A DNA stretch of 64,000 nt. Origin: a virus. Positions 1 to 26,018 of the stretch are shown here, in pieces. Position numbers and translations under genes: made by a program. The stretch is from the IMG/VR virus record IMGVR_UViG_3300006175_000011, positions 3,017 to 67,016 of that record. One strand, written 5' to 3'. Each line of letters begins with the position of its first letter. The first letter of the stretch is position 1. Under the pieces are notes generated by a model. That model worked only from the letters and a program-made list of their open reading frames with translations. It ran no database searches and was not told the origin of the DNA.

Positions 1-2473
1 GTGACCATGCCCCGATCTTAGCTTCGGCTTCAATCGGTACACTCAATTCAATCTCAAAGTCTTCGAGTAACGAGGGATGACTCATGATCTCCAATCCTCG
101 TTTATACACATACTCGACCATATCGTTGCGAACCTCGATCAGCACAGCGTCATGAACTGTGCCGACAAGCCTGAACCAATTCCTGCTGAACTCCTCACGC
201 ATCTGAAGGGCGGCCATCAAGTTCAACTCATTGGCGAATGACTGTACTGGGCTGTTAATCGCTTGCCGTTGAGCTTCTCTGCGTTCAGGAGTGTCACGAC
301 CCCCTTGTGCAGCCGGTAGTCTACGTTTTCTACCAGACAGGCTCCGGACGTATCCATTAATCTGGGCAAACCTACGTTGCTTATCGTGCCATTTAGGAAA
401 GGCAGGATAGAGCTCGAAGAAAGCTTCTCGAGACGCCTGTGCTTCATCATCGCTAACGTCCACTCCGTAGTTGTCGCGGGCATACATCTTGAACTTCTTC
501 CACCACATGCCGTAGAGGTAGCCGAAGTTGATTGCCTTTGCTTTCTTGCGGGTTTCACCCCAGTTGATGAAGGCTTCTTTGAGATCCTGAGTCTCCTTCC
601 ACTCGTCAACAACTCGCTTGGCTTCATCACCGCCGATGCCAAGGATATACTCGATGGCATCACTGTAATTCATTTTCTCGCCGCTGTGCAACTTAGCGGT
701 TTTGATTACTTCCTTTCGATAGGCGGCACCACGTTCAATTTCGCGAATTGCAGTTTGCCAATGAGGGTCGCCCCCTTCATTGAAGACTCGCAACAGATTG
801 TGCTCATCAGCGAGCTCAGCGGCAATCCGGAGCTCGATCTGCGAGAGATCCATCTCGATGAGGGTCCAACCGAGCGCCGCCGATATAAGAGATCTGATGC
901 GAGGATCGCGAGGAACTTGCTGGAGGTTTGGATGCTCACAGGAAAGTCGGCCTGTAACAGTTCCATGAAGTTTGAAGACCGGATGCAGTCTTCCGGCAAC
1001 GTCAATGTAAGGTCTCCAACCTTCAATGAAAGCAGAGAGTTGTTTCTGAGCTGCTCTAACTCGGAGAAGGTCACCGACCATGGGATGGTCAATTCGAAGT
1101 AAGACGCTTTCACTAACACTGTTCTTGCCTCCCTTCGTTTTATCGACGGGCTTGATCTTTAGGACGTTAAAGAGCAGGTCGCCTAGCTGATCGGCGCTGC
1201 CCCAGTTAATCTTCCCAGTCTTCTTATCGACCAGCTTTGCTTTACCGGCCCACTTCTCCAGTTTACCCAACGCGTCGGCGAGCTCTTCCCGAAGGTATGC
1301 TTCAGCCTCATCCATCTTATCCAGATGAATGAATACGCCTTGGTACTCAGCCTCAATGAACAGCTTGATACAGGGAACCATGATGAGATCATGGACTCGC
1401 TTGACATCGTGGTCTTCATCGAGACCGTCCTTCAACGGCTTACGCAAAGCACGAGTGTAATAGACGTCGTGCGCCGCGTATTTAGCGTTCTTCGGAGACC
1501 ACTCAGTTTTGTCCTTACCCCCGATATCCCAGTCCGCCGCGCCCAGCATCATCTGTGCAAGATACTTCAGGCCGTGAAAATCATTCTCGTCGAGCAGGAA
1601 GTGCGCGAGCATCGTGTCGAATGCCACAGTCCACTTGACACCAAACCTGACAAGCATCCACAGGCAATCGAACTTGCCATTGTGGAAAATCATCTTGCAG
1701 TATTTGCGGATACGGATCGTCGTTAGGCGAACGATCTCTTTCAAATCCTTCGGCGACCAGATCCCCGCAGTCTCCATGGGAACAACCCATTGTCGCTTCT
1801 TGCAGCCGAACTGCATGGCGACGACGCGCGGTAGGTTATTCGATCCGTGAGTGCCCTTGTGCTGTGCGAGCAGTTCCTTCGAAGCACGACCTGACTCGAT
1901 CAACTCATCCTGCATCGTGGTAAACGGATAGAGTCGCGAGGTTTCAAGGTCGGCGGATACCCAACCCGACAGGTCCTTGAGCATCGCTTTCACCTTGGGC
2001 CAGGTGTCTACGATGTGATAGTCTAGTTCACGTTCTTCGGGAATACCCCCGAAGTCAACGCATTCCCTTAGTCTCTGTATATCGCCCTGGATGACATCGA
2101 TCCATTTCTCGTCATGGAGAGCGATGTTCGGGTGTAGAAGCGGGAGTACGACTCTTTTATCTCTTTCGATCGGCTTTCCTCGTAGCTTTGTGATGCCTTG
2201 TTGGTCGAGGAAAGCTTGGCAAGGAGTGTTCCCAAGTAGGACGACATATTTAGGATCCTTCTTTTCGAGCCGTTGCATGAATGCCGACTTGGCATTCTTA
2301 ATCATGGTCTTGGTTACATTCTTGCCTTCGGCCGGTGCATTCTCCAGAACGTTTGTCCACCGAAAGTCTGACTCTTCGAAGCCACACTTAAGCATGGCCT
2401 CCATGAGTATCTTCTTGGCGCGGGGATTGATCTCGTCGTGTTCGCCTACGACAGTGATTTGCTTTCGGCTCAC
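1..2473 (-). CDS. polA: Family A DNA polymerase with N-terminal degenerate uracil-DNA-glycosylase-like domain and 3'-5' exonuclease; runs off the window edge, so it is absent from the ORF track
   Basis: Manual translation from GTG at 2473 (GTGA overlap with the deaminase stop): MSRKQITVVGE..WTNV..YVVLLGN..GITKLRG..LLHP (UDG-like), ADLET (ExoI), FHNGKFD (ExoII), MDLSQIELR (motif A), RKKAKAINFGYLYG (motif B), TVHDAV (motif C). Frame spot-checked at four points. Confidence 0.93.
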   Translation of the reverse strand, partial: MSRKQITVVGEHDEINPRAKKILMEAMLKCGFEESDFRWTNVLENAPAEGKNVTKTMIKNAKSAFMQRLEKKDPKYVVLLGNTPCQAFLDQQGITKLRGKPIERDKRVVLPLLHPNIALHDEKWIDVIQGDIQRLRECVDFGGIPEERELDYHIVDTWPKVKAMLKDLSGWVSADLETSRLYPFTTMQDELIESGRASKELLAQHKGTHGSNNLPRVVAMQFGCKKRQWVVPMETAGIWSPKDLKEIVRLTTIRIRKYCKMIFHNGKFDCLWMLVRFGVKWTVAFDTMLAHFLLDENDFHGLKYLAQMMLGAADWDIGGKDKTEWSPKNAKYAAHDVYYTRALRKPLKDGLDEDHDVKRVHDLIMVPCIKLFIEAEYQGVFIHLDKMDEAEAYLREELADALGKLEKWAGKAKLVDKKTGKINWGSADQLGDLLFNVLKIKPVDKTKGGKNSVSESVLLRIDHPMVGDLLRVRAAQKQLSAFIEGWRPYIDVAGRLHPVFKLHGTVTGRLSCEHPNLQQVPRDPRIRSLISAALGWTLIEMDLSQIELRIAAELADEHNLLRVFNEGGDPHWQTAIREIERGAAYRKEVIKTAKLHSGEKMNYSDAIEYILGIGGDEAKRVVDEWKETQDLKEAFINWGETRKKAKAINFGYLYGMWWKKFKMYARDNYGVDVSDDEAQASREAFFELYPAFPKWHDKQRRFAQINGYVRSLSGRKRRLPAAQGGRDTPERREAQRQAINSPVQSFANELNLMAALQMREEFSRNWFRLVGTVHDAVLIEVRNDMVEYVYKRGLEIMSHPSLLEDFEIELSVPIEAEAKIGAWS

Positions 2474-2961
2474 GGTAGTTCTATGACCTCATGCGAGAAA
2501 TACTCAACAATATAGCCCGCTGGGGTGATAATGTAAACGCCTATATTCTTGTCCTGGAGTTTTTCGAGATGGCCATTGACTCGATAGAGTTTCTCGAAGA
2601 ACACCCGATCGATCAGGCCACAGGAGATGATCCGGTCGACGCACTCCTCGCAAGGACTGTCAGTGCAGTAGAGGTCGAACGCACTTTTCTTGGGGTGGTT
2701 CGGCTTGAATACCTCGAGCAATGCATCGATGGCATTAGCCTCAGCGTGTAACGTCCCGCAGTTGCCCGGCACAATACCAGGACAGTGATTGCCGGCGCAG
2801 TGAGGTAGACCGGCCGCTGCTCCATTCCAGCCGATACTGACAGGCACCTTGCGATTGCGCGTTATGATAGCGCCGACGTTCAAACGATGACAGGTGGAGC
2901 GTTTAGCCGCCACCTTCGTCATCTCCATGAACATAACTTCTCGCGATATCCTACCCATCAC
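2470..2961 (-). CDS. dCMP deaminase
   Basis: RSTC..VGA, GWNG, HAEANA and SPCEEC zinc-binding deaminase motifs. Confidence 0.9.
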   Translation of the reverse strand: MMGRISREVMFMEMTKVAAKRSTCHRLNVGAIITRNRKVPVSIGWNGAAAGLPHCAGNHCPGIVPGNCGTLHAEANAIDALLEVFKPNHPKKSAFDLYCTDSPCEECVDRIISCGLIDRVFFEKLYRVNGHLEKLQDKNIGVYIITPAGYIVEYFSHEVIELP

Positions 2962-3827
2962 TGCTTCCCGAACAGCATTATGAAGTCATTGCGGAAAATA
3001 TGAAGACTGCCGATCTGCATAAGAAATTTCCCGGGTCGAATGTCGTCCCACCGCGCGTCGAGAGAACGGAGTCGATCAAGGACCCAGAGAAGTAGCCGGG
3101 CGGTAAGGTACAGGTCATCACGGAAATGCCGCACGAAGTCGCAACTTCGGATATGGTAATTGATGTCAAGTCTTCCGTCGCGCATAAGAAAGTGGTATCC
3201 AATAGTACACGGCGCACGCTTCGAACCACCCCCCGTATCCTCGGGAAACCATACCGGAAGATAGGCCTGACGGGTAAGGGGATCCGCGGATAGTAGGGAT
3301 ACCACGTCATTGAGGTCACCGTACTCATAGAGGATGCCCTTGTGAGGGGTGTCGGTATCCAGGTCTGTGAGTCTGATCCCATAATCATCGGCGGTCCCAG
3401 TGGGTTCGGTAACGTGCCCGGCATACTTCGGCCAATATCGTTCCATATAGTTATGATTGAATTTGCCTCGTTCATCCAAGAACGTAGCGGCACTTTTTCC
3501 GTACGGCCAGTTCTGCCACTCTTTTCCGGGATTGATCGGGAACCCACAGACTCTCTCCTCGAAATGGTCGTCAGCCCAAGGCAGGTTGGGTTTGATATCG
3601 TCCTGCAGCGTACCAAGCGTTCCGCCGATTGCTGTGCTGGGAACCATCATCTCATCCATACTCACCCCGAAAGAGACGTGAGCGACTTCGTGCGTAGCCA
3701 TCTCGGGACGAGCACTGATATCGGATCCTTGCCACTTGTCAGTGTGTACGATCTTGCTTCGATATTGAAGCAGATGCGAGGCCTGCGTAATGGCCTGATT
3801 GAAAGTGTCGAACAATACGGGCTTCAT
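2958..3827 (-). CDS. Thymidylate synthase-fold pyrimidine-modifying enzyme (dCMP hydroxymethylase-like)
   Basis: DPLTRQA, catalytic PC, RSCD motif, GSLHIF. Asp occupies the position equivalent to E. coli ThyA N177. Confidence 0.85.
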   Translation of the reverse strand: MKPVLFDTFNQAITQASHLLQYRSKIVHTDKWQGSDISARPEMATHEVAHVSFGVSMDEMMVPSTAIGGTLGTLQDDIKPNLPWADDHFEERVCGFPINPGKEWQNWPYGKSAATFLDERGKFNHNYMERYWPKYAGHVTEPTGTADDYGIRLTDLDTDTPHKGILYEYGDLNDVVSLLSADPLTRQAYLPVWFPEDTGGGSKRAPCTIGYHFLMRDGRLDINYHIRSCDFVRHFRDDLYLTARLLLWVLDRLRSLDARWDDIRPGKFLMQIGSLHIFRNDFIMLFGKQ

Positions 3828-4657
3828 TCTTCGTCCTCCTCGGGTTCTTGATAATCGTTGCGATGACCGGGGTGGTTATCGCGAAGGTATTTGGTCAATT
3901 TCTTTCGAAGCCTTCCTTTGATGCGGTTGTCGGCGTCCATCTTCACTCGAAGCGCCTGTGCGAACTTGGCGATCCCGCGGTAGTGTTCTTCGCATAGGTA
4001 TCTTGCCGTCCACTTAATTATCCACTCGTAGAAATACTTATCCCTTACCTTGATCGCCTCAAGCTCAGCGATAGGGTCAGCCATGTGAGGGATGGCGGTA
4101 ACAAAATACTGAGGATGCACAGTGATGTTGGCAAAGTGGCAGGTAAGCCCCAGAAAATCCATACCAGAAAAATCAAAGTCCCTGAGCAAGACATCCCGAA
4201 TAAAAACCAAGTCAGCAGGAAACTTCTTAAGAAGTTCCGTTGTTCGGTAGAATACGTCAATGAAGTACGCACCGTTCTTTCCTCCTTTGACCTGAGTGAT
4301 TACCACCGACTGCAAGCAAGGCCCCATTACTGAGGCCCGCTTCGACTTCTTGATAGCATCATTCTTGACGAAGTGGTTGTAGCAGGTGAAGCCCACAGAT
4401 CCGTAGGACGTCTTTGACCTACGAAGTTTCCAGAGTGTCAACGCGGCTTCGATGCTTTCCTCATGGACATAAAGTCTTTTGAGGTGAGACATCTTTGCGC
4501 CAGTATAACCGGCATCCTCAAGGATGAGTGGATCTTTATGATCCCATAGGTCATCAAATCGTATGGATTTCCCCCGAATAATTTTGCGACAACCTGAATA
4601 GAAGTCAGCCTTACGACGTGACAACTTCAAGACCTCTTTGATCCACTCATCCTTCAT
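3824..4657 (-). CDS. Divergent second thymidylate synthase-fold protein
   Basis: GPCLQSV then FYRTTELLKKFPAD, which parallels the TS PC...RSxD......N/D pattern; adjacent to the TS homologue. Confidence 0.55.
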   Translation of the reverse strand: MKDEWIKEVLKLSRRKADFYSGCRKIIRGKSIRFDDLWDHKDPLILEDAGYTGAKMSHLKRLYVHEESIEAALTLWKLRRSKTSYGSVGFTCYNHFVKNDAIKKSKRASVMGPCLQSVVITQVKGGKNGAYFIDVFYRTTELLKKFPADLVFIRDVLLRDFDFSGMDFLGLTCHFANITVHPQYFVTAIPHMADPIAELEAIKVRDKYFYEWIIKWTARYLCEEHYRGIAKFAQALRVKMDADNRIKGRLRKKLTKYLRDNHPGHRNDYQEPEEDEE

Positions 4658-4658
4658 G

Positions 4659-5603
4659 TTATGCGTTTAATCCATCACCGATATAACCGGTATCAATGAT
4701 CTTACCCGAGTTGTCGGCCAGGTGCTGCGTAGCCTCGGGATGAAAGATCTCATCGAAGATCGCGTTATCTTGAACGAGGTCGCGATGATCCGGTGCTTGC
4801 CAACCGGCGGGCTTCCGAATGTCATACTTGACTTCACGGCCGCTATCCTGTGCGCCTGAGTCGTCAACAGCTCGAACCTTCGCCATGTTAGCCGTGACGA
4901 CCCGTCGCCAAGCCTCGTAGAAAGCTCTACGACCGAACTGCAAATCCGCGGTGCCCAGTATCACCCAGGCAGCATCGGCAAGAGCATCGAGTTGAAGCTC
5001 GAGGATATTGATGATATCTCGACGATCCTTGCGCTCAATGGCGTCGAGCAATTTCGGGTACTCATCCCGGTATTCGCCGGTCTCCTCGTCGTGGAACTTG
5101 ACGCGGAAATCATGGAGGTCGGCCGGTAACATGCGGGGCTTACCAAGATATTCCTGACCGAACTTGGCATGGAATGCCGAGACATCGCCGATGAAGTCCG
5201 GGAAGTCATGATCCCGAATGTGGAGGCCTCGAGTCACGGCTTCGGCCTGTGCCTTGAGAACAGTCTTGATCCAGCTCGTTTCTCCGATGGTCAATCGGCT
5301 ATTCTGGAGCGGCCCCGCACTGACGAGCATATAACGAACGTCGCCGGCGTCCCCGTGTTGGAAATTAAAGGCAGCAACGACTTCATCATCCTTGTCGGTC
5401 AAGGTAACCGAGGAGTTTTCGATACCTTGTGGCGTGAAGCGTTGACCCCATCGCTCAAGACTGGTCCAGAACATCATGCCTTCATCGTTTCGGTAAGCAA
5501 CACCGGGTACCCATTCTCCGTCGAACTCACTCTTGCCAAGCTGTTCGCCGATGTAGTGATAGAAGCCGCCATCCACATGGCGATGCGTCGGTAGAAACGT
5601 CAT
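4659..5603 (-). CDS. MazG/PRA-PH-like dNTP pyrophosphohydrolase with N-terminal DUF1653-like domain
   Basis: EETGEY..LDALAD..ANMAK..KPAGW.APD; N-terminal HRHVDGGFY..VAY..RF. Confidence 0.75.
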   Translation of the reverse strand: MTFLPTHRHVDGGFYHYIGEQLGKSEFDGEWVPGVAYRNDEGMMFWTSLERWGQRFTPQGIENSSVTLTDKDDEVVAAFNFQHGDAGDVRYMLVSAGPLQNSRLTIGETSWIKTVLKAQAEAVTRGLHIRDHDFPDFIGDVSAFHAKFGQEYLGKPRMLPADLHDFRVKFHDEETGEYRDEYPKLLDAIERKDRRDIINILELQLDALADAAWVILGTADLQFGRRAFYEAWRRVVTANMAKVRAVDDSGAQDSGREVKYDIRKPAGWQAPDHRDLVQDNAIFDEIFHPEATQHLADNSGKIIDTGYIGDGLNA

Positions 5604-5613
5604 CGATCTTTCC

Positions 5614-6105
5614 TTATGCTTGAGTGTATTGTTGATAGAAGTAGACGGTCGCGATTAGCTGATCCATGTCGTCGCCGATACGATAGCAGAAGTGGGCATA
5701 CTGTGCAGCCCACAGGCGATACTCCTGCAACAGGTTGTTATACTTCTCGTTGACCATCTTCATGTGGTCAGCGGTATCATGATCTTTCTCGACATGACCG
5801 TCGAGACCTCGTTGCTGCGCATCGCAGTAGATCAGGATGGGTTTGGCCTCATAGAAGATCATCTGACGACCAGGTGTAATAGGATCACCCTCGAGACGAA
5901 ACTTACCATATATCGCATTCGATACCACAGGATGCCTGACGAAGATCGTTCGTTCCATGTTTGCGTACCCGTCCACGCGAGCATTTATTTCGTCGTCCGA
6001 CCGCGGTGGCCCTTCACTTTCTTGCACACGCATGGTCATATACTCGCCGAACGCTCGGGCCAGCGTCGACTTGCCGGAGTTGTCCATACCTTCAATTACA
6101 ATCAT
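5614..6105 (-). CDS. P-loop deoxynucleoside monophosphate kinase (thymidylate kinase-like)
   Basis: IVIEGMDNSGKSTLA Walker A; RHP..S..IY motif. Confidence 0.8.
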   Translation of the reverse strand: MIVIEGMDNSGKSTLARAFGEYMTMRVQESEGPPRSDDEINARVDGYANMERTIFVRHPVVSNAIYGKFRLEGDPITPGRQMIFYEAKPILIYCDAQQRGLDGHVEKDHDTADHMKMVNEKYNNLLQEYRLWAAQYAHFCYRIGDDMDQLIATVYFYQQYTQA

Positions 6106-8721: not shown

Positions 8722-8742
8722 GTCTCAGACTGGAGAAAATCA

Positions 8743-12135: not shown

Positions 12136-12191
12136 TTGATTGCGGAACCTGTATCGTTCATAATTCACGCAATCGCAATCACGCGATGGAG
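12136..12191 (+). promoter_or_regulatory. Early promoter + GCAATCACGC hairpin + SD
   Basis: TTGATT-17-CATAAT, ATCGC-AATCAC-GCGAT, GGAG. Confidence 0.7.
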
Positions 12192-13948: not shown

Positions 13949-14002
13949 TTGACATGAGCAGCTTAACGCGCGATTGTATGTGATCGCAATAACGCGATGG
14001 AG
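13949..14002 (+). promoter_or_regulatory. Early promoter + GCAATAACGC hairpin + SD
   Basis: TTGACA-17-GATTGT, ATCGC-AATAAC-GCGAT, GGAG. Confidence 0.75.
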
Positions 14003-14402: not shown

Positions 14403-14470
14403 TTGCGCTTCAGCGTCCGTTGTCGTAACGTGTAATTGTCGATATGCAATGACGCATTGCGACAACGGAG
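14403..14470 (+). promoter_or_regulatory. Early promoter + extended GCAATGACGC hairpin + SD
   Basis: TTGCGC-17-TAACGT, TTGTCG.ATGC-AATGAC-GCAT.CGACAA, GGAG. Confidence 0.75.
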
Positions 14471-16739: not shown

Positions 16740-17284
16740 TAGTCTTCTCCTGTTTCTGGTAGCGACCATACGCTGTCGCCTGCGGGTACTCGATCTTTAA
16801 CTACGCCAAGAGCTTTTGCAGCTGTGCGGAGTTGCTTACGGCTGTACCCGCCGCTATTCGCTGCCTTTTGGATATCTTCCCAATTCATAGGTCCGTGGGA
16901 TAATAAGTTTCTTATGTGGACTTCGCATTCACGGTACTGATAAGATTGTATCTCGATCTCTTCAAGTAGTTCTGTGGAGTTAGGTATCCGGGCGAGTGCA
17001 TCGCGGACATATGCTGCGTGAGCTCGTGCAGGTGAACCTCTGCGGCCTTTGATCCCAATCATCATATGCTTGATAGCTGTACGGAGGATTAGGTTCCACC
17101 ATGGCCATTGTGGAGGTTGCTTGATCCACCTATCCCATGTCCTACGGTCTATTGCCAAGATACGGCAGGTTGCGCTGATATTGCCATTTGTGGCTTCATA
17201 TAACAGATCTGTCAGAGCCTCGAACTCCTTGAGATCTAGCGTTGGAAGATCTGCGAATTGATTATATCTTTTCTTGACTTTCAT
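16739..17284 (-). CDS. Double HTH/wHTH DNA-binding protein, candidate origin-binding protein
   Basis: GNISATCRILAIDRRTWDRW HTH; C-terminus resembles the wHTH tail of the primase-helicase. Confidence 0.6.
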   Translation of the reverse strand: MKVKKRYNQFADLPTLDLKEFEALTDLLYEATNGNISATCRILAIDRRTWDRWIKQPPQWPWWNLILRTAIKHMMIGIKGRRGSPARAHAAYVRDALARIPNSTELLEEIEIQSYQYRECEVHIRNLLSHGPMNWEDIQKAANSGGYSRKQLRTAAKALGVVKDRVPAGDSVWSLPETGED

Positions 17285-17379
17285 GGTTACGGCCTTGTTT
17301 AACGTAATGGGTTGGTGCTTACAAACACAAGTATACCTTTTTTTCGCCTTAATGTCAAACCACTGTGCTCTTATGCTCA

Positions 17380-17750
17380 AATACGGGTTGGTTGGTCTTG
17401 TATTTGGGTAAAGATTAGCATAAATGGCATACTGGCGTAATGGATTTACATATATGTAAAAAAAGAGAGAGTTGTTTTGTATTCGCGCGAACCTTTTGGC
17501 CCACGTGATTTATTGTCAATGGATATGAGTCTGTATAATAGTCTTATGGGACCAGCTGGACCAGCCGAGAGACGGGCCAAATATAGACCACGTAATTACG
17601 TGTCTCTGTTAGAGACCGCGTAGAACGGGTAGCAGCTTGGCCAACATCTTGTCTATGCAGACAGCTAACTAAGTGGCACTAAGATGCGTGTCACTGGAAG
17701 ATACAGATAGCTATTGAGTCTGGCCAAGCCAGAATACTCGATGGAAATAA
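17380..17750. other. AT-rich, palindrome-rich noncoding region; candidate origin or genome-end region
   Basis: TTTACATATATGTAAA, TTCGCGCGAA and CACGTAATTACGTG palindromes; no ORF. Confidence 0.4.
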
Positions 17751-17754
17751 ACAG

Positions 17755-17809
17755 TTGATCTCTGGATATTTATGTTCGATTGTGTATTATCGCAATGACG
17801 CGATGGGAG
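17755..17809 (+). promoter_or_regulatory. Early promoter + GCAATGACGC hairpin + SD
   Basis: TTGATC-17-GATTGT, ATCGC-AATGAC-GCGAT, GGGAG. Confidence 0.75.
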
Positions 17810-17816
17810 CTACGAC

Positions 17817-18020
17817 ATGATTATCAAAACCACATTGGTCATCGGCTGCGATGCGACGGACCCGTCTGCCAATGACGTGACATTGGATCTACGCGAGCTG
17901 CTCGTGACAAAGCTCCAATCGATTGGTCGTTGCGAATTGGTCGGGATGATCGATGACGGCTTGATTGTCGAATTGGATCTCGACGTAGCCGATCCGTCCG
18001 TATATCGCGTGGCCGATTGA
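17817..18020 (+). CDS. Hypothetical acidic protein, monocistronic
   Basis: Own promoter, SD and downstream hairpin. Confidence 0.65.
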   Translation: MIIKTTLVIGCDATDPSANDVTLDLRELLVTKLQSIGRCELVGMIDDGLIVELDLDVADPSVYRVAD

Positions 18021-18233
18021 TAATGATGCGGGTCTCACGGCCCGTTTCATTTGGGCAACGATTGGCTTGGCCAAGCTTAGTGTTAGAGACCGTATGGTAC
18101 GGGTAGCGCATCTGTGGGAATAAGGCGGATTGGCCAATCTCACTATCTCTGGTTGGGCCAGCCATGTACACATGGAGCTTATGATGCGTGCATACGCGTG
18201 CATTTAATGCATGTACGATTGCATTATTTGCAA

Positions 18234-18293
18234 TCGACAACATGCGATTGCGTTCGTATATTGATGACATCGAAACGCAATGACGCGTTCGAT
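18234..18293 (+). promoter_or_regulatory. Island promoter + GCAATGACGC hairpin
   Basis: TCGACA-17-TATATT, ATCGAA.CGC-AATGAC-GCG.TTCGAT. Confidence 0.65.
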
Positions 18294-18314
18294 ATGATGA
18301 AAGTGAAACACGCA

Positions 18315-18623
18315 ATGTCACGCAACAACAAAACGATTGCATTTCCGTGCGTTTTGAAAACGATCATTTCGCACACGCATCGCGACGACAAAACGTTCGC
18401 ACGCAACGACAAACAAATTCGCGCGACATTGCGCGCAAAATCGATCAACGATCACATTCGCAACACGTCGTGGATCGCAACGAATATGCGTGAATATGAC
18501 GCGATACGTCGCGCATACGATGCGCGTTACGATGCGTCGTTCGCACGCGCAAAGCGTGTCACGAAATCGCGTGTCGCGCCGAACGTCGTCGTTGTCGACG
18601 ACAATGCGAACGTTGACGCGTAA
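18315..18623 (+). CDS. 102-aa basic Gly-free protein, divergent member of the HTH-like paralogue family
   Basis: MSRNNKTIAF...NDKQIRATLRAKSINDHIRNTSW; ATG after promoter and GAAAGTG. Confidence 0.65.
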   Translation: MSRNNKTIAFPCVLKTIISHTHRDDKTFARNDKQIRATLRAKSINDHIRNTSWIATNMREYDAIRRAYDARYDASFARAKRVTKSRVAPNVVVVDDNANVDA

Positions 18624-18685
18624 CGCAATCGCATGGCGTTGAACGCGAATACGCGCAACGCTACACGTTGAAAGGATAACACGCG

Positions 18686-18763
18686 ATGACACGCATTGAC
18701 GTATATGCGTTAACAATGATCGTTTGCGTAACGTTGATCGTTGTAACGTATTTGTCGCATTGA
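18686..18763 (+). CDS. 25-aa single-TM peptide (not in ORF track)
   Basis: AAAGGA SD; MTRIDVYALTMIVCVTLIVVTYLSH. Confidence 0.55.
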   Translation: MTRIDVYALTMIVCVTLIVVTYLSH

Positions 18764-18889
18764 ACGCACGCGACACGCATATGACCGCCCGCATGCAAAA
18801 ACCGGGCCATATGCGTACAGCACGCACCTGGTCCCCATCTATATTTCTAAGGTTTTAAGACTTAACGTAATTACGTGTCGAGGTAAATC

Positions 18890-19171
18890 ATGAACCTAAT
18901 GTCTGATGCTCCACAAGACGGACAATGCATCCTTCTACTCTTTTGGCCTAGGCTCTACAAGAACAAACGGGTCAAGGGAATAAACTTCAACGGCTACGAG
19001 AGGACGACCTTTCCCAAGTGGGAAGAGTGTCGGTGGATCAGTAACGAAGCAAGGACTGGATCTCCACCTCACTGGGAACCTTGGTGTGGGGAGAAGAATA
19101 CCTATAGCTCCCAGCATATAAACAACAAAGACGCTATAGGCTGGCTACCTGTACCTGAAAGAGGAGACTGA
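18890..19171 (+). CDS. Hypothetical protein (DUF551-like)
   Basis: MSDAPQDG..ILL...GWLPVPE; GAGG SD. Confidence 0.55.
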   Translation: MNLMSDAPQDGQCILLLFWPRLYKNKRVKGINFNGYERTTFPKWEECRWISNEARTGSPPHWEPWCGEKNTYSSQHINNKDAIGWLPVPERGD

Positions 19172-19172
19172 T

Positions 19173-19520
19173 ATGGAGATCTATCAACAAGCGCACGACC
19201 TAATCGAGAGACTCGAACGTCAAGACAGGAACACAATGAACATGGACTGTGACGCAGCAGCTCAATTCTTGACAACCCTCTTCGGCAAACCACCTCCTCG
19301 GCCAAGTCTCCCCGAACCCAAACCGCAATATCTCGAAGACGGCTACTATTGGTTCAAGTGCGAGAGAGCCTCAGCCCGATCCATCGCTCAGCACGTCAGA
19401 GGACACTGGTACACCGTCAATGAAGACGGACCAATCGACATACTCGAACTTAACCGTCGAGGTTGGATACTGGACGAGATGGTCCACGACGAGAAAGCTT
19501 GGAGGCCGGGAGAAGACTGA
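19173..19520 (+). CDS. Hypothetical protein
   Basis: AGGAG SD; EDGYYWFK. Confidence 0.6.
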   Translation: MEIYQQAHDLIERLERQDRNTMNMDCDAAAQFLTTLFGKPPPRPSLPEPKPQYLEDGYYWFKCERASARSIAQHVRGHWYTVNEDGPIDILELNRRGWILDEMVHDEKAWRPGED

Positions 19521-19704
19521 ATAAAGACAAGCCGGCGGCACTACGTGTTATAGACATAAAGGAAGTACCTGTGAGACTAATACCCCTATTACTCTTGATC
19601 GCAGTAATCATGTTGGCCGGCTATGGCAGCACAATGATGCGAGGCCTGTCCTGGGGCGTAGGCCGGGAGGTCGCCCACACCGCATTCCACCACAGGCGGT
19701 ATAG

Positions 19705-19935
19705 ATGACCTACTTCGTAGAACGAACAGTATTCGAAGCTGAAGCTTTTGCGAGCAACACCCGAGAAGCTATGATAGATAATCAACTCAACGATTATCTA
19801 GACGATCGACACAACCACTCTCAGCCTAGAGGGCTAGTGTCGGTACAACAGACTTCGGAGAACAGCAAAGACAAAACCTTAAAGGTTGAATTTCTTCTAG
19901 TCTGGCGAAATCACAAAGTGGAAGCCTACAGATGA
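19705..19935 (+). CDS. Hypothetical protein
   Basis: Coupled ORF; resembles the C-terminal part of the next ORF. Confidence 0.5.
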   Translation: MTYFVERTVFEAEAFASNTREAMIDNQLNDYLDDRHNHSQPRGLVSVQQTSENSKDKTLKVEFLLVWRNHKVEAYR

Positions 19936-20234
19936 AGACACCCAGCTGTCCGTACTGTGGCGAGCCCATGATACGGCAGCTAAAACAAAAGCCTTTCTAC
20001 TCTTGGATATGCTACAACAGTCACAAGGAGAACACCATGAAGTTCCGTACCGAGATCTTTGTCACCGAGTCACGTGGCCGAGACATGAGTCGACACCTCG
20101 ACGTTCTATTGAATGAACGACGATTTCCCGTAACCCGCCTGGTGTCAGTCGCCCCGTTCGGACCACCGGCACCTTCAAGCCATCACGACTTCAAGGACCT
20201 GTGTCAATTCCTCGTAACGTGGGAAGTGCCGTGA
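19932..20234 (+). CDS. Hypothetical protein with N-terminal Zn ribbon; internal SD/ATG at MKFRTE
   Basis: CPYCG..C...H; internal AAGGAG. Confidence 0.5.
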   Translation: MKTPSCPYCGEPMIRQLKQKPFYSWICYNSHKENTMKFRTEIFVTESRGRDMSRHLDVLLNERRFPVTRLVSVAPFGPPAPSSHHDFKDLCQFLVTWEVP

Positions 20235-21374: not shown

Positions 21375-21590
21375 ATGGAAGAGAAAGCTTACAACAGCCT
21401 GAGTACGAAAGTCAGGAACGCCCTGCACCGCAACAGAGCCAAGAGCTTCCCGCCGCTGACCGGGTTTCACAGCCCGCTGGTTGACACGAAGCCTTGGGAG
21501 TTGCCGATCAGGGATCTGCTCAAGATCAAGGGTATTGGGCCGGCGGCGATTAAGGAAATTGCTCAAGTAGCGGAGAAACTCTGTGTCTGA
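21375..21590 (+). CDS. RNA polymerase alpha-CTD-like helix-hairpin-helix protein
   Basis: LSTKVRNALHR...DLLKIKGIGPAAIKEI matches the alpha-CTD LSxRxxNxL..LLKxxNLGxKSxxEI pattern. Confidence 0.65.
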   Translation: MEEKAYNSLSTKVRNALHRNRAKSFPPLTGFHSPLVDTKPWELPIRDLLKIKGIGPAAIKEIAQVAEKLCV

Positions 21591-22476
21591 TATGGAAAAG
21601 GTTTATTGGCGCTTTGCAAATGAGCGCCTGCGCATGTATCACCGTCGGCTCAAGGGTAAGGAGTCACTGACGAAGGATTCCATTCTTCGGGATCATCGGT
21701 TCACCAACGCCTATCGCGCCAGCGACCGCGTCAGTCAATACCTGATCCGTGAAGTTCAATACGGCGAAGAAGAACGCAAGAAAGAACTGTTCTTCCGGAC
21801 ATTGCTCTTTAAGATCTTCAATAAGATCGAGACCTGGCAAATGATCCAAGGCCATTTCGACGAACCTATCACTAGTCATGACCTTAAACATATTCGCAAG
21901 CTTCTGGTGAAACACGGGGGCAAAGGCCTTTACTCCGCAGCGTACATCCAGGCAAGTCCGGCCGGCAAGGGTGTCAGTAAAGCTATCGCACACATTGATC
22001 TATTGACAGCTCTCATGGATTTACCTCTTTGGAAGAACGTCCGCGATGCCCGATCACTCGAGGAAGTTTTTCTTCACATGAGGTCTATCCGTAGTTTCGG
22101 TGATTTCCTTGCCTACCAATATACTATCGACTTGAATTACTCTACGATGATCGACTTCGACGAGAACGACTTCGTAGTTCCTGGGCCCGGAGCACTGGAC
22201 GGTATCAGCAAGATTATGCCCGGCACGCATCCCGTGAAGGCGATACGCCATATGACCAAGCGTGCCCGCGATGAGATGGGTGATACCCTCTTCGGTAGAC
22301 AGCTTCACCTGATCGATTGTCAGAATCTCTTCTGTGAGATCAGCAAATACACCCGCGTTAGTCATCCGACGATCCAGGGCGTATCAGGTAGGACCACGAT
22401 CAAACAGAACTATACGCCACACTCAGAGCCTTTGCCTCGACCATTCTTTCCGCCGAAGTGGAACCTCGAGTATTGA
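21583..22476 (+). CDS. aGPT-Pplase1 / 5-hmdU DNA kinase helical-domain family DNA base hypermodification protein
   Basis: FANER..DSILRDHRFTNAYRASDRVSQYLI, FKIFN..ETW, GDFLAYQY.IDLNYS, GPGA..G, DCQNLFCEISKY.R. Confidence 0.85.
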   Translation: MSDMEKVYWRFANERLRMYHRRLKGKESLTKDSILRDHRFTNAYRASDRVSQYLIREVQYGEEERKKELFFRTLLFKIFNKIETWQMIQGHFDEPITSHDLKHIRKLLVKHGGKGLYSAAYIQASPAGKGVSKAIAHIDLLTALMDLPLWKNVRDARSLEEVFLHMRSIRSFGDFLAYQYTIDLNYSTMIDFDENDFVVPGPGALDGISKIMPGTHPVKAIRHMTKRARDEMGDTLFGRQLHLIDCQNLFCEISKYTRVSHPTIQGVSGRTTIKQNYTPHSEPLPRPFFPPKWNLEY

Positions 22477-22780: not shown

Positions 22781-22974
22781 GCCGTACCAAGATTAGCACG
22801 TTGACGAGGCAACCGCTCTACCTTCGGCAGCCCACCGAGGCGGAACAAAAAGAGATTAATCCACAGGGATCGGCAACCTTCCTTCTGGTTGATGGATCTA
22901 ACAAGGCGGTTGCTATGATCGAGATCGATGACCTGTTCGACGAGAACGGTAATCGTTTCGAGGACGATACGTGA
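22777..22974 (+). CDS. Hypothetical protein
   Basis: ATGA coupling. Confidence 0.5.
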   Translation: MSRTKISTLTRQPLYLRQPTEAEQKEINPQGSATFLLVDGSNKAVAMIEIDDLFDENGNRFEDDT

Positions 22975-23042
22975 GATTTAACCGGTTGACGTAGACTCCC
23001 ATCATTGCGATAACAGTGATGTCATCAACGAGGAGATAATCA

Positions 23043-23201
23043 ATGCCGAAGACCACCCTGAAGCTCGACCGCGACACCAAGGGCACGTTCGTTTTCAAGA
23101 ACGACGCCGAGGACGCGCCGATCCCATCGCTCTACATCAAGAAGCATGCCTTTCCCGGCGATGCGCCGAAGTCGATCACCGTCGAGTTCAAGGCTGCCTG
23201 A
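23043..23201 (+). CDS. 52-aa small beta-rich protein (not in ORF track)
   Basis: TTGACG-17-GATAAC promoter, AGGAG SD; MPKTTLKLDRDTKGTFVF...SLYIKK. Confidence 0.7.
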   Translation: MPKTTLKLDRDTKGTFVFKNDAEDAPIPSLYIKKHAFPGDAPKSITVEFKAA

Positions 23202-23482
23202 TGCCTGTCTACCGCCCGAAGCTCGTTTCCCAGAAGGCGGTCGTGGAGTACCGGTCCTCGTCGGATCGGTACTTCATTTGCTATCCCGATCTCAAGATGG
23301 AGTTGGTGATGGCGTTCAAGAGTAAGCAGACTGCTGCCGAGATAGCGATCAACGCTGAAGCCGGCACTCCCTTCTTTACGATGATCCCGACTGTGGATTA
23401 TGACACGCCCTATCCCCGGCCGGATTATGAATATCCGCCGGTGCGCAATCCCGCGGTGTTTCCGCTGGTATTGAAGGATTGA
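23201..23482 (+). CDS. Hypothetical protein
   Basis: TGATG coupling. Confidence 0.5.
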   Translation: MPVYRPKLVSQKAVVEYRSSSDRYFICYPDLKMELVMAFKSKQTAAEIAINAEAGTPFFTMIPTVDYDTPYPRPDYEYPPVRNPAVFPLVLKD

Positions 23483-23533
23483 CATTTTAACGTGATTGCG
23501 TTAATGTCTCATAGTCGCATTTCGCGACTGGAG
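23479..23533 (+). promoter_or_regulatory. Promoter + variant hairpin + SD
   Basis: TTGACA-17-TAATGT, AGTCGC-ATTTC-GCGACT, GGAG. Confidence 0.65.
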
Positions 23534-23541
23534 ATAATCGT

Positions 23542-23844
23542 ATGTCCATGACAGTGCGAGTTCAGGCACGAGCCTGGGGCGCTATCGTGACCGTCGCCAA
23601 GACGACTCAGGGCGAGGAAGGTCACATCACCGAAGACCACGAGGAACACGTTCTCGGCGCAAACGAGGATCGAGTCTTCCACGTCGAGCCCGGTTATTCG
23701 GTGACCGCCGTTCACGGCAAGGAACCCACCGCCGAAGAGGAAACTGCCGAAACCGTTTCGGCCGAGGATCCCGCGGCATCCGGCAAACGCAAGGGCTTCA
23801 AATCGCCCGCCGACAATGAGTCGGCTACCGACACGCAGATCTAA
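23542..23844 (+). CDS. Hypothetical acidic protein
   Basis: Own promoter and SD. Confidence 0.65.
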   Translation: MSMTVRVQARAWGAIVTVAKTTQGEEGHITEDHEEHVLGANEDRVFHVEPGYSVTAVHGKEPTAEEETAETVSAEDPAASGKRKGFKSPADNESATDTQI

Positions 23845-23852
23845 CCTCGAAC

Positions 23853-23876
23853 GAGGGGTCGTTTCGACGGCCCCTC
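23853..23876 (+). terminator. Stable hairpin with UUCG loop
   Basis: GAGGGGTCGT-TTCG-ACGGCCCCTC; no U-tract. Confidence 0.4.
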
Positions 23877-23883
23877 ACAGGAG

Positions 23884-24270
23884 ATGACAATGGCCAAGAA
23901 CGGCATCCCGAAGACCGCCATAACTGAGAAAACCCTGAGGAAGCACATTCGGGGAGCCGCGAAGTCTCACTCTTCCGTTAGTGCATGGGCTGTGGAAAAC
24001 GGACTCACAGCACAGCAAGTCACGGCTTTTCTGCGTAAGACGCAAGGTGCTGGACTCAAATTGCCCGAACTACTCGGGTATCGGCCTCAGTTAATCTTCA
24101 TCCCATTGAATGAGGACCTGATCTGCACCCTTCCACCGCCGCGCGTAAAAGCTACCAAAAGGCCCACGAAAAAGGTCGATCATAGCCTTGAACCTGTTGT
24201 AAAGAAGGGCAACAAGCCTAAGGACGACCGTAAAGACACCAAAAAGCGATTGAAAAAGAGGAAGAAATAA
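23884..24270 (+). CDS. HTH-like DNA-binding protein with Lys-rich tail
   Basis: SVSAWAVENGLTAQQVTAFL. Confidence 0.55.
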   Translation: MTMAKNGIPKTAITEKTLRKHIRGAAKSHSSVSAWAVENGLTAQQVTAFLRKTQGAGLKLPELLGYRPQLIFIPLNEDLICTLPPPRVKATKRPTKKVDHSLEPVVKKGNKPKDDRKDTKKRLKKRKK

Positions 24271-24617
24271 TGCCCCTGCTTTTCTACGGGGTTTTGCCCA
24301 ATAAGCGTAAACGAAGGCTATACAGCAAGAATTTACGCGAGATCGAGACCTCTTTGTTCGATCATTTCAAGATCAAAGACCTTGCGCCTTACAGTCGACT
24401 GCATCATGTGGCCAATTTCTGGCACCTGATCTCGCTCGACACCACGGCGATTGCTTGGCACACCGACGACGGTGAGAAAGAGCAAGTCATATTCATTCCC
24501 GGTATTCATAACCAGATTGACTCGTTAGCTATCGCTCGACTTGAGTTTGGATCGGTTATGCCCGGCGCCACGACATTCCGGTTCAACAACAAGGTCTATG
24601 TCCATGAGTATACTTAA
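24270..24617 (+). CDS. Hypothetical protein
   Basis: Coupled ORF. Confidence 0.5.
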   Translation: MPLLFYGVLPNKRKRRLYSKNLREIETSLFDHFKIKDLAPYSRLHHVANFWHLISLDTTAIAWHTDDGEKEQVIFIPGIHNQIDSLAIARLEFGSVMPGATTFRFNNKVYVHEYT

Positions 24618-24816
24618 TGGGATGGTGAACGTAGTTCTACCACCGGAGGCGGTTGACTTTCTCATTCGTAACTGCGATGACAGCATCAAGCAAGGTCAAC
24701 GTCTGCTGATGCCTTTAGCTGATGTCGAATTGACGCCGCCTCAAAGGGACGACATTCGGAGCATGATGACCAAGTTTGAGATCATCAAGGCCGCGGCGGA
24801 AAGGTCATTACGATGA
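24604..24816 (+). CDS. Hypothetical protein
   Basis: Fills the gap to the ligase, ATGA coupling. Confidence 0.45.
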   Translation: MSILNGMVNVVLPPEAVDFLIRNCDDSIKQGQRLLMPLADVELTPPQRDDIRSMMTKFEIIKAAAERSLR

Positions 24817-25712: not shown

Positions 25713-25717
25713 ACCAG

Positions 25718-25769
25718 TTGATGGACAGTTATCCGTATGCGATAATGTTGACGCAACGACGCAACGGAG
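25718..25769 (+). promoter_or_regulatory. Promoter + degenerate GCAACGACGC motif + SD
   Basis: TTGATG-17-GATAAT, GC-AACGAC-GC, GGAG. Confidence 0.65.
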
Positions 25770-25776
25770 ATATAAC

Positions 25777-26007
25777 ATGCGAACGATTGAACTCGAGGAC
25801 GACGACTTCGCACAGGTACGAGCTGCATTGATGACGATGAGTGAGGTCAGCGACATGCAGATCAACACATCGCTTGAACTGATCGCTCGACTAAGGCGCG
25901 ATGAGCCTGACGCCGCTGCGGGGACAATCACCGACCTCGAGGGACAGGTTCAAGACTTCGAGCTCGACAGCGAAAACCTTAAGCGCATCGCGCAACTATT
26001 CAGCTAA
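25777..26007 (+). CDS. Hypothetical acidic coiled-coil protein
   Basis: GGAG SD before ATG 25777; the upstream extension in the track overlaps the ligase. Confidence 0.65.
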   Translation: MRTIELEDDDFAQVRAALMTMSEVSDMQINTSLELIARLRRDEPDAAAGTITDLEGQVQDFELDSENLKRIAQLFS

Positions 26008-26018
26008 GGAATTGATCG

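What the first reader, a model, noticed from the sequence alone, without database searches (positions are those of the whole stretch)
18181..18784. 600-bp island almost free of CC/CT (=GG/AG) dinucleotides: a candidate modification-free window in a hypermodified genome
Seen: a hand count gives only 9 CC, CT, GG or AG dinucleotides in ~604 bp (3 AG, 3 GG, 2 CC, 1 CT), against roughly 150 expected at uniform composition. The edges are sharp. TT/AA, TC/GA, CG, GC, CA and AC are abundant, so this is neither low complexity nor general dipyrimidine avoidance. Most exceptions are forced: two Pro codons, one Trp codon and two SD sequences. The island holds a complete expression unit (promoter, leader hairpin, 102-aa Gly-free ORF, 25-aa TM peptide), so protein sequence appears subordinated to DNA context. 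Inference: the phage installs a bulky base modification at CY (or RG) sites, and this segment is selected to stay unmodified, for example to be read first by host RNA polymerase, or for packaging or replication.
Basis: partly seen in the sequence, partly recalled or inferred. Interest (0 to 1): 0.93.

Follow-up and report, generated by a model that had tools for sequence, protein, structure and literature searches.

The report
Phage early gene banning CY dinucleotides
A small, self-contained early gene of an uncultured soil phage, with its promoter, is written almost without the DNA steps CC, CT, GG and AG, and diverged relatives keep the same rule at the cost of their protein sequence, so something still unidentified must read that two-letter step on the phage DNA.

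Summary
Window 18181-18784 holds 9 CC/CT/GG/AG steps, against 145±16 per 600 bp, and it is the only such stretch in the 67-kb phage genome.

It is not chance, low complexity or a mutational footprint. The island is one transcription unit: a sigma70-like promoter, a 5' hairpin and a conserved 102-aa Gly-free protein gene.
- The gene has 60 homologues and dN/dS of 0.11-0.64.
- The ORF carries 4 banned steps. The minimum possible for this protein is 3, and neutral recoding gives 48±5.

Of 12 related loci, 5 keep a strict ban that also covers non-coding promoter and terminator DNA, 2 are intermediate and 5 (one clade) are relaxed. Weaker ban patches cover the cores of other early promoters in the strict genomes.

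- The 5-hmdU kinase occurs only in this genome, and a complete relative with a strict island lacks it.
- All sufficiently complete relatives share a cytosine-replacement-type gene module.

My best reading is a DNA-level exclusion zone that keeps DNA which unaided host RNA polymerase must open free of an obstacle at CY steps.

This scan noted the same ban before on two other phage genomes.

The parts
18180..18784 (.). CY/RG-free island: 9 CC/CT/GG/AG steps in 604 bp, both strands
18234..18262 (+). sigma70-like promoter TCGACA-17-TATATT (10 of 12), entirely inside the island; about 54 bp of banned-step-free DNA lie upstream of the -35
   Evidence: consensus scan only; the same position in relatives
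18270..18292 (+). 5' leader hairpin with loop AATGAC, the same loop type (AAYNAC) as at the other early promoters
   Evidence: (hairpin present in the MFE; z-score of the whole 57 nt is not significant)
18315..18623 (+). gene for a conserved 102-aa basic, Gly-free protein of unknown fold; SD-like AAAGTG at 18300-18305
18686..18763 (+). 25-codon hydrophobic ORF after SD-like AAAGGA; lineage-specific extension that still obeys the ban; coding status doubtful
   Evidence: no counterpart in 8 related loci, which carry a terminator hairpin here
18775..18816 (+). hairpin straddling the 3' edge of the island (no U-tract after it)
   Evidence: I21; z -2.07
18818..18889 (+). conserved CY-containing promoter-like element (consensus ..CACGCACCTGGTCCATATCTATATTTCT.AGGTTTTA..) with the palindrome ACGTAATTACGTG, then SD and the next operon (18890-)
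   Evidence: D2, I9; 6 of 7 relatives' downstream segments align
18057..18140 (.). repeat scaffold just upstream of the island: TTGGCCAA-type palindromes and a 27-nt repeat also present at 17607-17647
   Evidence: D3, D4, D10, I15, I17
17765..17804 (+). example of a short ban patch over an early promoter core (from about -20 to the SD). Others: 8693-8723, 9728-9763, 12150-12187, 13963-13998, 14418-14466, 23477-23507, 25734-25765, 27194-27233, 27260-27313
2470..6105 (-). context: nucleotide module (dCMP deaminase, TS-fold 1 with Asp, TS-fold 2, MazG-like pyrophosphohydrolase, dNMP kinase) shared by all relatives with enough sequence
21583..22476 (+). context: 5-hmdU DNA kinase homologue (PF18723, 265 bits), unique to this genome among the relatives

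Best explanation
The island is a self-contained early transcription unit. It has a host-type sigma70-like promoter, a 5' hairpin and the gene for a small basic protein, followed in relatives by an intrinsic terminator. Purifying selection acting on the duplex DNA itself keeps it free of 5'-CY-3'/5'-RG-3' steps on both strands.

Shown:
- The ban is dinucleotide-level and strand-symmetric.
- It covers non-coding as well as coding DNA.
- It is held within one step of the theoretical minimum for the protein.
- It persists over saturating synonymous divergence.
- It recurs in weaker form over the cores of the other early promoters.
- It varies as a lineage-wide trait, strict or relaxed.

Inferred: in this family of lytic phages, whose gene set points to replacement of cytosine, something sits at or acts on CY steps and hinders the unaided host RNA polymerase. 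The hindrance would fall mainly on promoter opening. DNA that must be used first after injection has therefore been purged of those steps. The one gene whose product is needed before anything else is purged throughout. That 'something' could be a context-dependent secondary modification of the phage's own cytosines, or a host factor that recognises modified C followed by a pyrimidine. The sequence evidence does not decide between the two. I lean slightly to the host factor, because no candidate enzyme tracks the strict genomes.
For: - Statistics. Pooled over 6 strict islands (3,269 bp), O/E is AG/CT 0.07, CC/GG 0.10, CG 2.79, and no further trinucleotide signal stands out.
- Real gene: 61 proteins at E<=0.01, one of them the window's own, with identity down to 44%. 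dN/dS is 0.11-0.64 in the 55 of 66 pairs whose dS was not saturated, and pS is 0.39-0.68 among the eight strict or intermediate islands, leaving out the near-identical pair L014/L016 (0.12).
- The ban overrides coding:
  - The ORF has 4 banned steps; the minimum possible is 3; random synonymous recoding with genome codon usage gives 48.1±5.4 (minimum 30 of 2000).
  - Codons holding a banned step, among amino acids that have a choice, make up 2% here against 60% in 13 long ORFs.
  - There is 1 Gly in 6,148 residues of 61 homologues. Dipeptides [KEQMW][VADEG], which force a banned junction, number 57 against 305 expected.
- DNA level: promoter, upstream DNA, leader and terminator are also free in WIN, L004, L008, L009, L015 and L019.
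- Promoter cores:
  - Gaps of 37 nt or more number 13 (0.68 expected) in G000 and 11 (0.24) in G005, against 3 (0.47) in relaxed G003.
  - Banned density in the 15 nt before the leader hairpin is 2% and 4% (strict) against 18% (relaxed).
  - The same promoter and hairpin architecture is present in all three.
- Lineage trait: the 5 relaxed loci form one side of a branch (support 94/95).
- Family context: the TS-fold module is in 6 of 7 records, with Asp at the L. casei Asn229 position.
- Literature, passages read: major-groove modifications 'primarily influence transcription initiation' (PMC4838386). Kinase-phosphorylated hmU templates drop to about 10% transcription (PMC6457204).
Against: - No modification has been measured.
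- No enzyme or host factor with CY specificity is identified.
- The strict-only shared genes are few, small and unannotated (7 ORFs of 65-172 aa plus a DUF2786/DUF7168 protein whose equivalent G003 also has).
- If the obstacle only affected initiation, there would be no need to purge the whole 300-bp coding region and terminator. My explanation for that (speed or priority of the first gene) is ad hoc.
- Early timing is inferred from promoter type and position, not shown. No RNA run holds the stretch.
- The promoter-core patches are short, rest on 4-7 promoters per genome, and partly reflect the shared -10 and hairpin sequences.
- The relaxed clade keeps the cytosine module, so base replacement alone cannot be the cause.
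- Even the relaxed ORF is still below neutral expectation (30 vs 57±4.7).
Confidence: 0.45

Rival explanations
1. The phage's own 5-hmdU-kinase pathway installs a bulky group at CY (or RG) sites, and the island is the window left unmodified.
For: A kinase homologue is present at 21583-22476. Thymidine hypermodification is described as sequence-specific, with motifs unknown (PMC5889632, passages). Phosphorylated hmU templates are poorly transcribed (PMC6457204).
Against: The kinase is absent from all other records searched (0 of 5; 1 of 5, G000 only; no tblastn hit in G005, G003 or Polewnik). Yet G005 has an equally strict island and 11 long gaps. A thymidine pathway would not explain the CC/GG ban. 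TS-fold 1 looks dCMP-specific.
Confidence: 0.08
2. A target-free first-entry region, as in the T7 early region or T5 first-step transfer. A host nuclease or other DNA-damaging defence reads CY steps. The island enters or acts before the phage's counter-measure, which the 102-aa protein may be.
For: A self-contained unit with its own promoter and terminator. The protein is of unknown function with no known fold. Early-injected-region motif avoidance is described for Autographiviridae (PMC12455610, listing and start of abstract only). Two earlier follow-ups of this scan chose this as the closest known (leads only).
Against: Entry order is unknown, and the island lies about 14.5 kb upstream of TerL in a co-linear map. 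The T4-type terminase often means headful packaging with no fixed end (recalled). A cut anywhere else would still kill the phage. The ban also covers about 40-bp promoter cores of other early genes whose coding DNA is not purged, which a nuclease target model does not predict. The island is rich in common restriction palindromes (CGCG 17, ACGT 9, GCGC 8, GATC 6).
Confidence: 0.2
3. The inverse model. The protective modification can only be completed at C followed by a purine, so the island is written so that every C is fully protected.
For: All 148 C's but 3 are in CA/CG context. In T-even phages glucosylation depends on the neighbouring base (recalled, not checked here).
Against: There is no evidence for any such enzyme. 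Local full protection does not save a genome that is vulnerable elsewhere. The model shares all the untested steps of the main explanation.
Confidence: 0.1
4. RNA-level selection. The transcript avoids CC/CU/GG/AG to escape an RNase, Rho, CsrA-like binding or internal SD/anti-SD pairing.
For: The patches end at the SD, and the SD is trimmed to AAAGG/AAAGTG. Non-forced exceptions on the sense strand are mostly AG.
Against: The ban is equally strong on both strands. It covers 10-95 bp upstream of the -35, which this promoter does not transcribe. Rho's YC preference (recalled) does not fit, because TC is not depleted (O/E 1.10). No Rfam family matches (0 matches).
Confidence: 0.07
5. A physical DNA property (Z-DNA-prone, flexible or easily melted DNA), or a mutational footprint such as deaminase hypermutation.
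For: Alternating purine-pyrimidine steps number 424 of 600 against 293±20. There are runs such as an 18-nt perfect RY alternation at 18186-18203.
Against: GA/TC and AA/TT steps are not depleted, so alternation is not the target. GC content is only slightly lower (48.7% vs 53%), and TY/RA steps are not enriched, unlike a C-to-T process. The protein is under purifying selection.
Confidence: 0.05

Closest known systems
Recognition-motif avoidance in the first-injected or first-expressed DNA of lytic phages (T7 early region with Ocr, T5 first-step-transfer region, Murciavirus early region vs Type I R-M, PMC12455610)
   Same: A local stretch that must work before the phage is protected lacks the sequences that a hostile reader needs, and it encodes small early proteins.
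   Different: Here the 'motif' is a class of 4 of the 16 dinucleotides. The ban rewrites the protein (no Gly). It also covers promoter cores of other early genes. Entry order is unknown. Ordinary restriction palindromes are abundant in the island. T7 and T5 facts are recalled; for PMC12455610 I saw only the listing and the start of the abstract.
Dinucleotide-context phage DNA hypermodification (dPreQ0 at GA and GGC in phage CAjan, PMC7544227; sequence-specific thymidine hypermodification via 5-hmdU DNA kinase, PMC5889632 and PMC8989533)
   Same: It shows that phage base modification can be set by one neighbouring base. This genome carries a kinase homologue of that pathway.
   Different: No modification-free windows are described in the passages I read. 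The kinase is absent from relatives that keep the ban. No enzyme with CY/RG context is known or found here.
T4-type cytosine replacement (dCTPase, dCMP hydroxymethylase, dNMP kinase)
   Same: The same logic of genes sits next to the polymerase: a MazG-like pyrophosphohydrolase, a TS-fold enzyme with Asp at the base-selecting position and a dNMP kinase.
   Different: The parts are not T4 homologues, and the chemistry is unknown. Pre-replicative replacement is context-free, so by itself it cannot explain a CY rule. The relaxed clade keeps the module.
Lambda N / nut-type immediate-early regulator with RNA hairpins in early leaders
   Same: A small basic protein comes from a stand-alone first unit, and a hairpin with a conserved loop and covarying stems lies at the 5' end of each early transcript, including its own.
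   Different: This is analogy only. There is no sequence or fold similarity and no test of RNA binding.

Membership tests
Early-region motif avoidance (T7/T5 type) | The region enters or is expressed first | not testable with these tools
   Promoter type and position suggest early expression. No RNA holder is listed. The termini are unknown.
Early-region motif avoidance (T7/T5 type) | The region lacks the recognition sites of a defined defence system | tested here: inconclusive
   It lacks CY/RG, but no known system reads that. Common 4-bp palindromes are enriched.
Early-region motif avoidance (T7/T5 type) | It encodes a recognised anti-defence protein | tested here: inconclusive
   No Pfam or PHROG family. 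Best fold match Z 4.4, Foldseek E>1. No Atlas hit.
5-hmdU-kinase thymidine hypermodification system | Kinase gene present in phages that show the feature | tested here: not met
   Present in G000 only. The strict island in G005 exists without it.
5-hmdU-kinase thymidine hypermodification system | Modified base present in virion DNA, in a CY/RG context | not testable with these tools
   Needs LC-MS and nanopore or SMRT data.
Rho-utilisation-site avoidance | Depletion of YC (UC and CC) on the transcript strand only | tested here: not met
   TC O/E is 1.10, and the ban is CY, on both strands. The YC rule is recalled.
Z-DNA / alternating purine-pyrimidine tract | All RR/YY steps are disfavoured | tested here: not met
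   GA/TC 75 vs 91.5±9.8 and AA/TT 92 vs 69.6±12.1.
Context-specific hypermutation (deaminase / RIP-like) | Loss of target C with gain of TY/RA, a drop in GC, and decay of coding | tested here: not met
   GC is 48.7% vs 53%, and the compensation is in CG, GC and AC/GT. dN/dS<1.
Known RNA families | Match to an Rfam model | tested here: not met
   0 matches at gathering score in the whole window; 0 tRNA genes.

The most novel reading that the evidence does not exclude
A still unknown agent reads a single dinucleotide step (C followed by a pyrimidine) on cytosine-replaced phage DNA and blocks host RNA polymerase at promoters. It could be a new context-specific cytosine hypermodification or a new host defence. 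In response, a family of lytic soil phages has evolved a 'stealth' immediate-early gene and stealth promoter cores. The 102-aa product would be the factor that then lets the rest of the genome be read.
Probability: 0.35. Interest if true: 0.9.

Novelty: new variant of a known kind. Interest (0 to 1): 0.8.

Why it matters
If the reading holds, a two-letter DNA step is the recognition unit of some process that decides whether a phage's first gene can be expressed. That resolution is far below any described restriction, CRISPR or silencing system.

The ban gives a purely computational handle (CY-free windows) for three things:
- finding immediate-early genes and early promoter cores in uncultured phages;
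- guiding experiments on how host RNA polymerase copes with modified phage DNA.

It is also a clear natural case of DNA-level selection overriding protein sequence: 1 glycine in 6,148 residues of 61 homologues.

Tried and rejected
- Chance ORF: dinucleotide-Markov copies of the island give an ATG ORF of 102 aa or more in 27.7% of 2000 trials. ORF length alone is therefore no evidence; homologues settled the question.
- Repeat or iteron explanation: no dominant k-mer, and only short 11-30-nt repeats.
- DNA similarity to 50,697 phage records: none for 17000-20000. The island protein by tblastn: none.
- GTDB genomes: no relative of the protein.
- The search for related loci with the kinase as a single protein: no relative.
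- Protein function: no Pfam or PHROG family. AlphaFold model pLDDT 72.5. Foldseek PDB had no match at E<=0.001. VIA wide best Z was 4.4. ESM Atlas gave no usable hit.
- Gene-content correlation of strict (G000, G005) against relaxed (G003, Polewnik) genomes: only small unannotated ORFs differ. The DUF2786/DUF7168 protein that looked strict-specific has an equivalent in G003.
- GANTC sites: 0 in the island, about 1.4 expected; not informative.
- No RNA holder listed, and only one DNA contig run holds 7% of the words.
- PF00303 missed the G005 TS-fold gene, although tblastn finds it. That blank was discarded.
- Literature search for dinucleotide avoidance in phage early genes returned nothing relevant (30 papers held at least 4 of the 5 terms, 12 listed). 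I ran no other search for this, so 'not in print' rests and on the passages read.
- (T-even glucosylation context) gave no usable source, so that point is marked as recalled.
- Supplementary files were not opened.
Full report
**Observation.** Window 18181-18784 (604 bp) holds 3 AG, 3 GG, 2 CC and 1 CT, exactly as reported.
- Sliding 600-bp windows over the 64-kb window give 145.4±16.4 such steps, and the minimum, 9, is at this place.
- By strand-symmetric class: AG/CT 4 vs 70.7±10.5; CC/GG 5 vs 74.6±13.1; CG rises to 95 vs 48.6±10.1; GA/TC (75 vs 91.5±9.8) and AA/TT are not depleted.
- The edges are sharp. There are 18 banned steps in the 56 nt before 18179, and they are dense again from 18785.
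- The window is bases 3017-67016 of a 67,016-bp virus record rated complete. In the whole record the next-lowest 600-bp window has 106.

**Not an artefact of composition or mutation.**
- No k-mer dominates and repeats are short.
- GC is 48.7% against 53% for the window. The missing steps are replaced by CG, GC, AC/GT, AT and CA/TG, not by the TY/RA steps that a C-to-T process would leave.
- Alternating purine-pyrimidine steps are enriched (424 of 600 vs 293±20). Because GA/TC and AA/TT stay normal, alternation is a consequence and not the target.
- Pooled over six strict islands (3,269 bp), O/E is 0.07 for AG/CT and 0.10 for CC/GG. Given the dinucleotides, no trinucleotide stands out. The rule really is dinucleotide-level: C is never followed by a pyrimidine, and G is never preceded by a purine.

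**Anatomy.** Inside the island lie:
- a sigma70-like promoter, TCGACA-17-TATATT, at 18234-18262 (consensus scan only);
- a leader hairpin at 18270-18292 with loop AATGAC;
- an SD-like AAAGTG;
- an ORF at 18315-18623;
- a 160-bp extension with a 25-codon hydrophobic ORF (18686-18763).

Eight related loci inspected show the same order of promoter, hairpin (loop AAYNAC), SD AAAGG and ORF. Instead of the extension, the strict ones carry a strong hairpin followed by a U-rich run right after the stop codon (L008 z -4.0, L015 z -4.2). The small ORF is thus lineage-specific and doubtful, yet its DNA obeys the ban.

Right after the island comes a conserved element that does contain CY steps (consensus CACGCACCTGGTCCATATCTATATTTCT.AGGTTTTA..GA.TCACGTAATTACGTG). 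It aligns in 6 of 7 relatives' downstream segments and is followed by the next operon.

**The gene is real and the ban overrides it.**
- ORF length alone proves nothing: 27.7% of Markov copies have an ORF this long.
- A search of 5.8 billion proteins found 61 at E<=0.01, one of them the window's own, 94-134 aa long and down to 44% identity.
- Thirty of them align with 19 invariant positions, including the forced Pro18 and, nearly invariant, the forced Trp60.
- For 12 of the 13 orthologues with DNA (L007, whose protein is identical to L006, was left out; 66 pairs), dN/dS is 0.11-0.64 in the 55 pairs whose dS was not saturated. The proportion of synonymous differences is 0.39-0.68 among the eight strict or intermediate islands, leaving out the near-identical pair L014/L016 (0.12). 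The ban has therefore been held through long divergence.
- The ORF has 4 banned steps. The minimum any encoding of this protein allows is 3. Random synonymous recoding with the genome's codon usage gives 48.1±5.4, with a minimum of 30 in 2000.
- Among amino acids that have a choice, 1 of 52 codons holds a banned step, against 60% in 13 long ORFs of the window. No codon junction is banned, against 25%.
- The 61 homologues hold 1 Gly in 6,148 residues, 2.9% Leu and 1.6% Pro. They hold 57 dipeptides of the type [KEQMW][VADEG], which force a banned junction, where 305 are expected.

**Relatives.** I therefore fetched DNA with the search for related loci: 6 loci from viral contigs, 6 from metagenome contigs and none from GTDB genomes.

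| Group | Loci | Banned steps per 100 bp |
|---|---|---|
| Strict | L004, L008, L009, L015, L019 | 1.3-2.6 over 490-560 bp, flanking promoter and terminator included |
| Intermediate | L014, L016 | 3.5-3.7 |
| Relaxed | L005, L006, L007, L017, L018 | 8-13 |
| Flanks of these loci | | 21-27 |

- The five relaxed loci form one side of a branch (support 94/95) nested among strict ones on a midpoint root. The simplest reading is a single weakening.
- Even there the ORF has 30 banned steps against 57.2±4.7 under neutral recoding, so the ban is weakened and not gone.

**Genome context.**
- The phage is a siphovirus-like lytic phage. It has a PolA with an N-terminal UDG-like stretch, a RepB-primase/AAA protein, a T4-type TerL, a portal and a tape-measure-size ORF.
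- Its nearest isolates are Brevundimonas phages Polewnik and Strzyga (TerL 64%; broad synteny).
- Next to PolA sits a block of dCMP deaminase, two TS-fold proteins, a MazG-like pyrophosphohydrolase and a dNMP kinase. ThyX is elsewhere.
- TS-fold 1 aligns to L. casei thymidylate synthase with Asp at the Asn229 position, as in the dCMP-acting N229D mutant entry that it matches. This suggests a 5-substituted dCMP and hence replaced cytosine. That is inference.
- The block is shared by G005, G003 and Polewnik. TS-fold 2 is found in 4 of 5 further records; the miss is a 67%-complete fragment.
- The 5-hmdU DNA kinase homologue (21583-22476, 265 bits) occurs only in this genome.
- G005, complete and with a strict island, lacks it. 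Pfam gave nothing but ThyX for the 8 G005 and 2 G003 early ORFs I scanned.

**Promoter cores.**
- Outside the island the strict genomes have many long gaps free of banned steps. Gaps of 37 nt or more number 13 in G000 (0.68 expected from 100 Markov genomes; 6 of the 13 lie in the island) and 11 in G005 (0.24 expected). Relaxed G003 has 3 (0.47 expected) and Polewnik 3 (0.18 expected).
- In G000 most of these gaps sit on early promoters of one design: GTTGA/C-type -35, a -10, a 5-bp hairpin with loop AAYNAC, and SD GGAG. They run from about -20 to the SD.
- G003 has the same design, but with CY/RG steps between the -10 and the hairpin.
- Aligned on the hairpin, banned density in the preceding 15 nt is 2% (7 promoters, G000), 4% (5 promoters, G005) and 18% (4 promoters, G003). 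Coding DNA downstream is normal in all three (20-26%).
- These patches are short and rest on few promoters, so they are supporting evidence, not decisive.

**What it is not.**
- General restriction-site avoidance: the island is rich in CGCG (17), ACGT (9), GCGC (8), GATC (6) and TGCA (6).
- Rho-site avoidance: the recalled YC rule predicts loss of TC, which is normal, and a one-strand effect.
- An RNA-only constraint: both strands are equally purged, and 10-95 bp upstream of the -35 are included.
- A known RNA family or tRNA.
- A known protein family or fold.

**Mechanism.** What is shown is a selection-maintained, strand-symmetric, DNA-level exclusion of CY/RG steps from one complete early unit and, more weakly, from early promoter cores. 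It varies as a lineage trait within a phage family that shares a cytosine-replacement-type module.

- A few exceptions are tolerated, and the other early genes are purged only where RNA polymerase binds and melts DNA. I therefore favour an obstacle to transcription initiation over a cutting enzyme.
- In vitro, bulky major-groove groups block bacterial polymerases mainly at initiation (PMC4838386, abstract and conclusions read). Kinase-phosphorylated hmU templates fall to about 10% of the hmU level (PMC6457204, passages read).
- Dinucleotide-context hypermodification exists (GA and GGC in CAjan; PMC7544227, abstract and results passages read).
- Motifs of thymidine hypermodification were reported as unknown (PMC5889632, passages read).

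The obstacle may be the phage's own secondary modification or a host factor bound to modified C in CY context. No enzyme tracks the strict genomes, and this tilts me slightly to a host factor.

Why the whole gene is purged is unexplained. My guess is that its product is needed before anything else, perhaps acting on the leader hairpins or on the conserved element just downstream, in analogy to lambda N. This was not tested.

**Earlier notes and novelty.**
- This scan noted the same CC/CT/GG/AG ban before on two other phage genomes (e1-5933008, e1-5940397). It also noted a mirror-image GR/YC ban in giant phages (e1-5960403, e1-6131045, e1-5868441). These are leads and not evidence. By shared words their sequences are not close to mine.
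- New here:
  - the kinase is uncoupled from the ban;
  - there is a relaxed clade that keeps both the protein and the cytosine module;
  - the ORF is within one step of the theoretical minimum;
  - the island is rich in ordinary restriction palindromes.
- I found no description in print (plus the passages read). That is a thin search.

**Limits.**
- There are no modification, expression or terminus data.
- The hosts are unknown.
- Only three complete relatives and one isolate were compared for gene content.
- Promoter calls are consensus matches.
- Supplementary files were not opened.

Noticed in passing
window 18818-18889; also 17548-17604; L004, L008, L014, L015, L019 just after their islands: A conserved promoter-like element that does contain CY steps (..CACGCACCTGGTCCATATCTATATTTCT.AGGTTTTA..) with the palindrome ACGTAATTACGTG directly follows the island and precedes the next operon. 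It is a candidate target of a phage-specific factor.
   Followed up: partly
window 9753, 10749, 12177, 13988, 17794, 18279; G005 22906-27971; G003 1933-64671: Early promoters share a 5' leader hairpin with the conserved loop AAYNAC and differing but complementary stems, abutting the SD. The design is kept in strict and relaxed relatives but not found in Polewnik.
   Followed up: partly
L002 (Polewnik ON529863) 6861-7140: The cultured Brevundimonas phage Polewnik has a partial CY/RG-poor intergenic stretch (7.9 per 100 bp vs about 27) at the syntenic place, next to a minus-strand HTH-like gene. It has no homologue of the island protein and no 5-hmdU kinase.
   Followed up: partly
L008 about 9790-9900, L009 about 9850-9930, L019 about 2530-2640, L006 about 5430-5520, Polewnik 7460-7540: Tandem ATGGTTAA-type repeats (operator- or iteron-like) lie just upstream of the island in several relatives. 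The window has TTGGCCAA palindromes instead (18064-18140).
   Followed up: no
window 27194-27313: Two banned-step-free patches (41 and 55 nt) flank a GC-rich hairpin (cctgaggcgtctgaggcgcgtctcagg) near a minus-strand ORF. This may be a divergent or terminator-promoter junction.
   Followed up: no
window 2-2473 (-): The PolA ORF carries an N-terminal uracil-DNA-glycosylase-superfamily stretch (PF03167, residues 19-119) before the exonuclease and polymerase domains.
   Followed up: no
window 2958-4657 (-): There are two adjacent TS-fold genes. The first has Asp at the base-selecting Asn position. The second has no PDB sequence match and only distant phage hits annotated as pyrimidine hydroxymethylase.
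   Followed up: partly
G003 17015-17160: The relaxed genome keeps a second short CY/RG-poor stretch (47 per 300 bp; gaps of 44 and 42 nt) outside its island gene.
   Followed up: no
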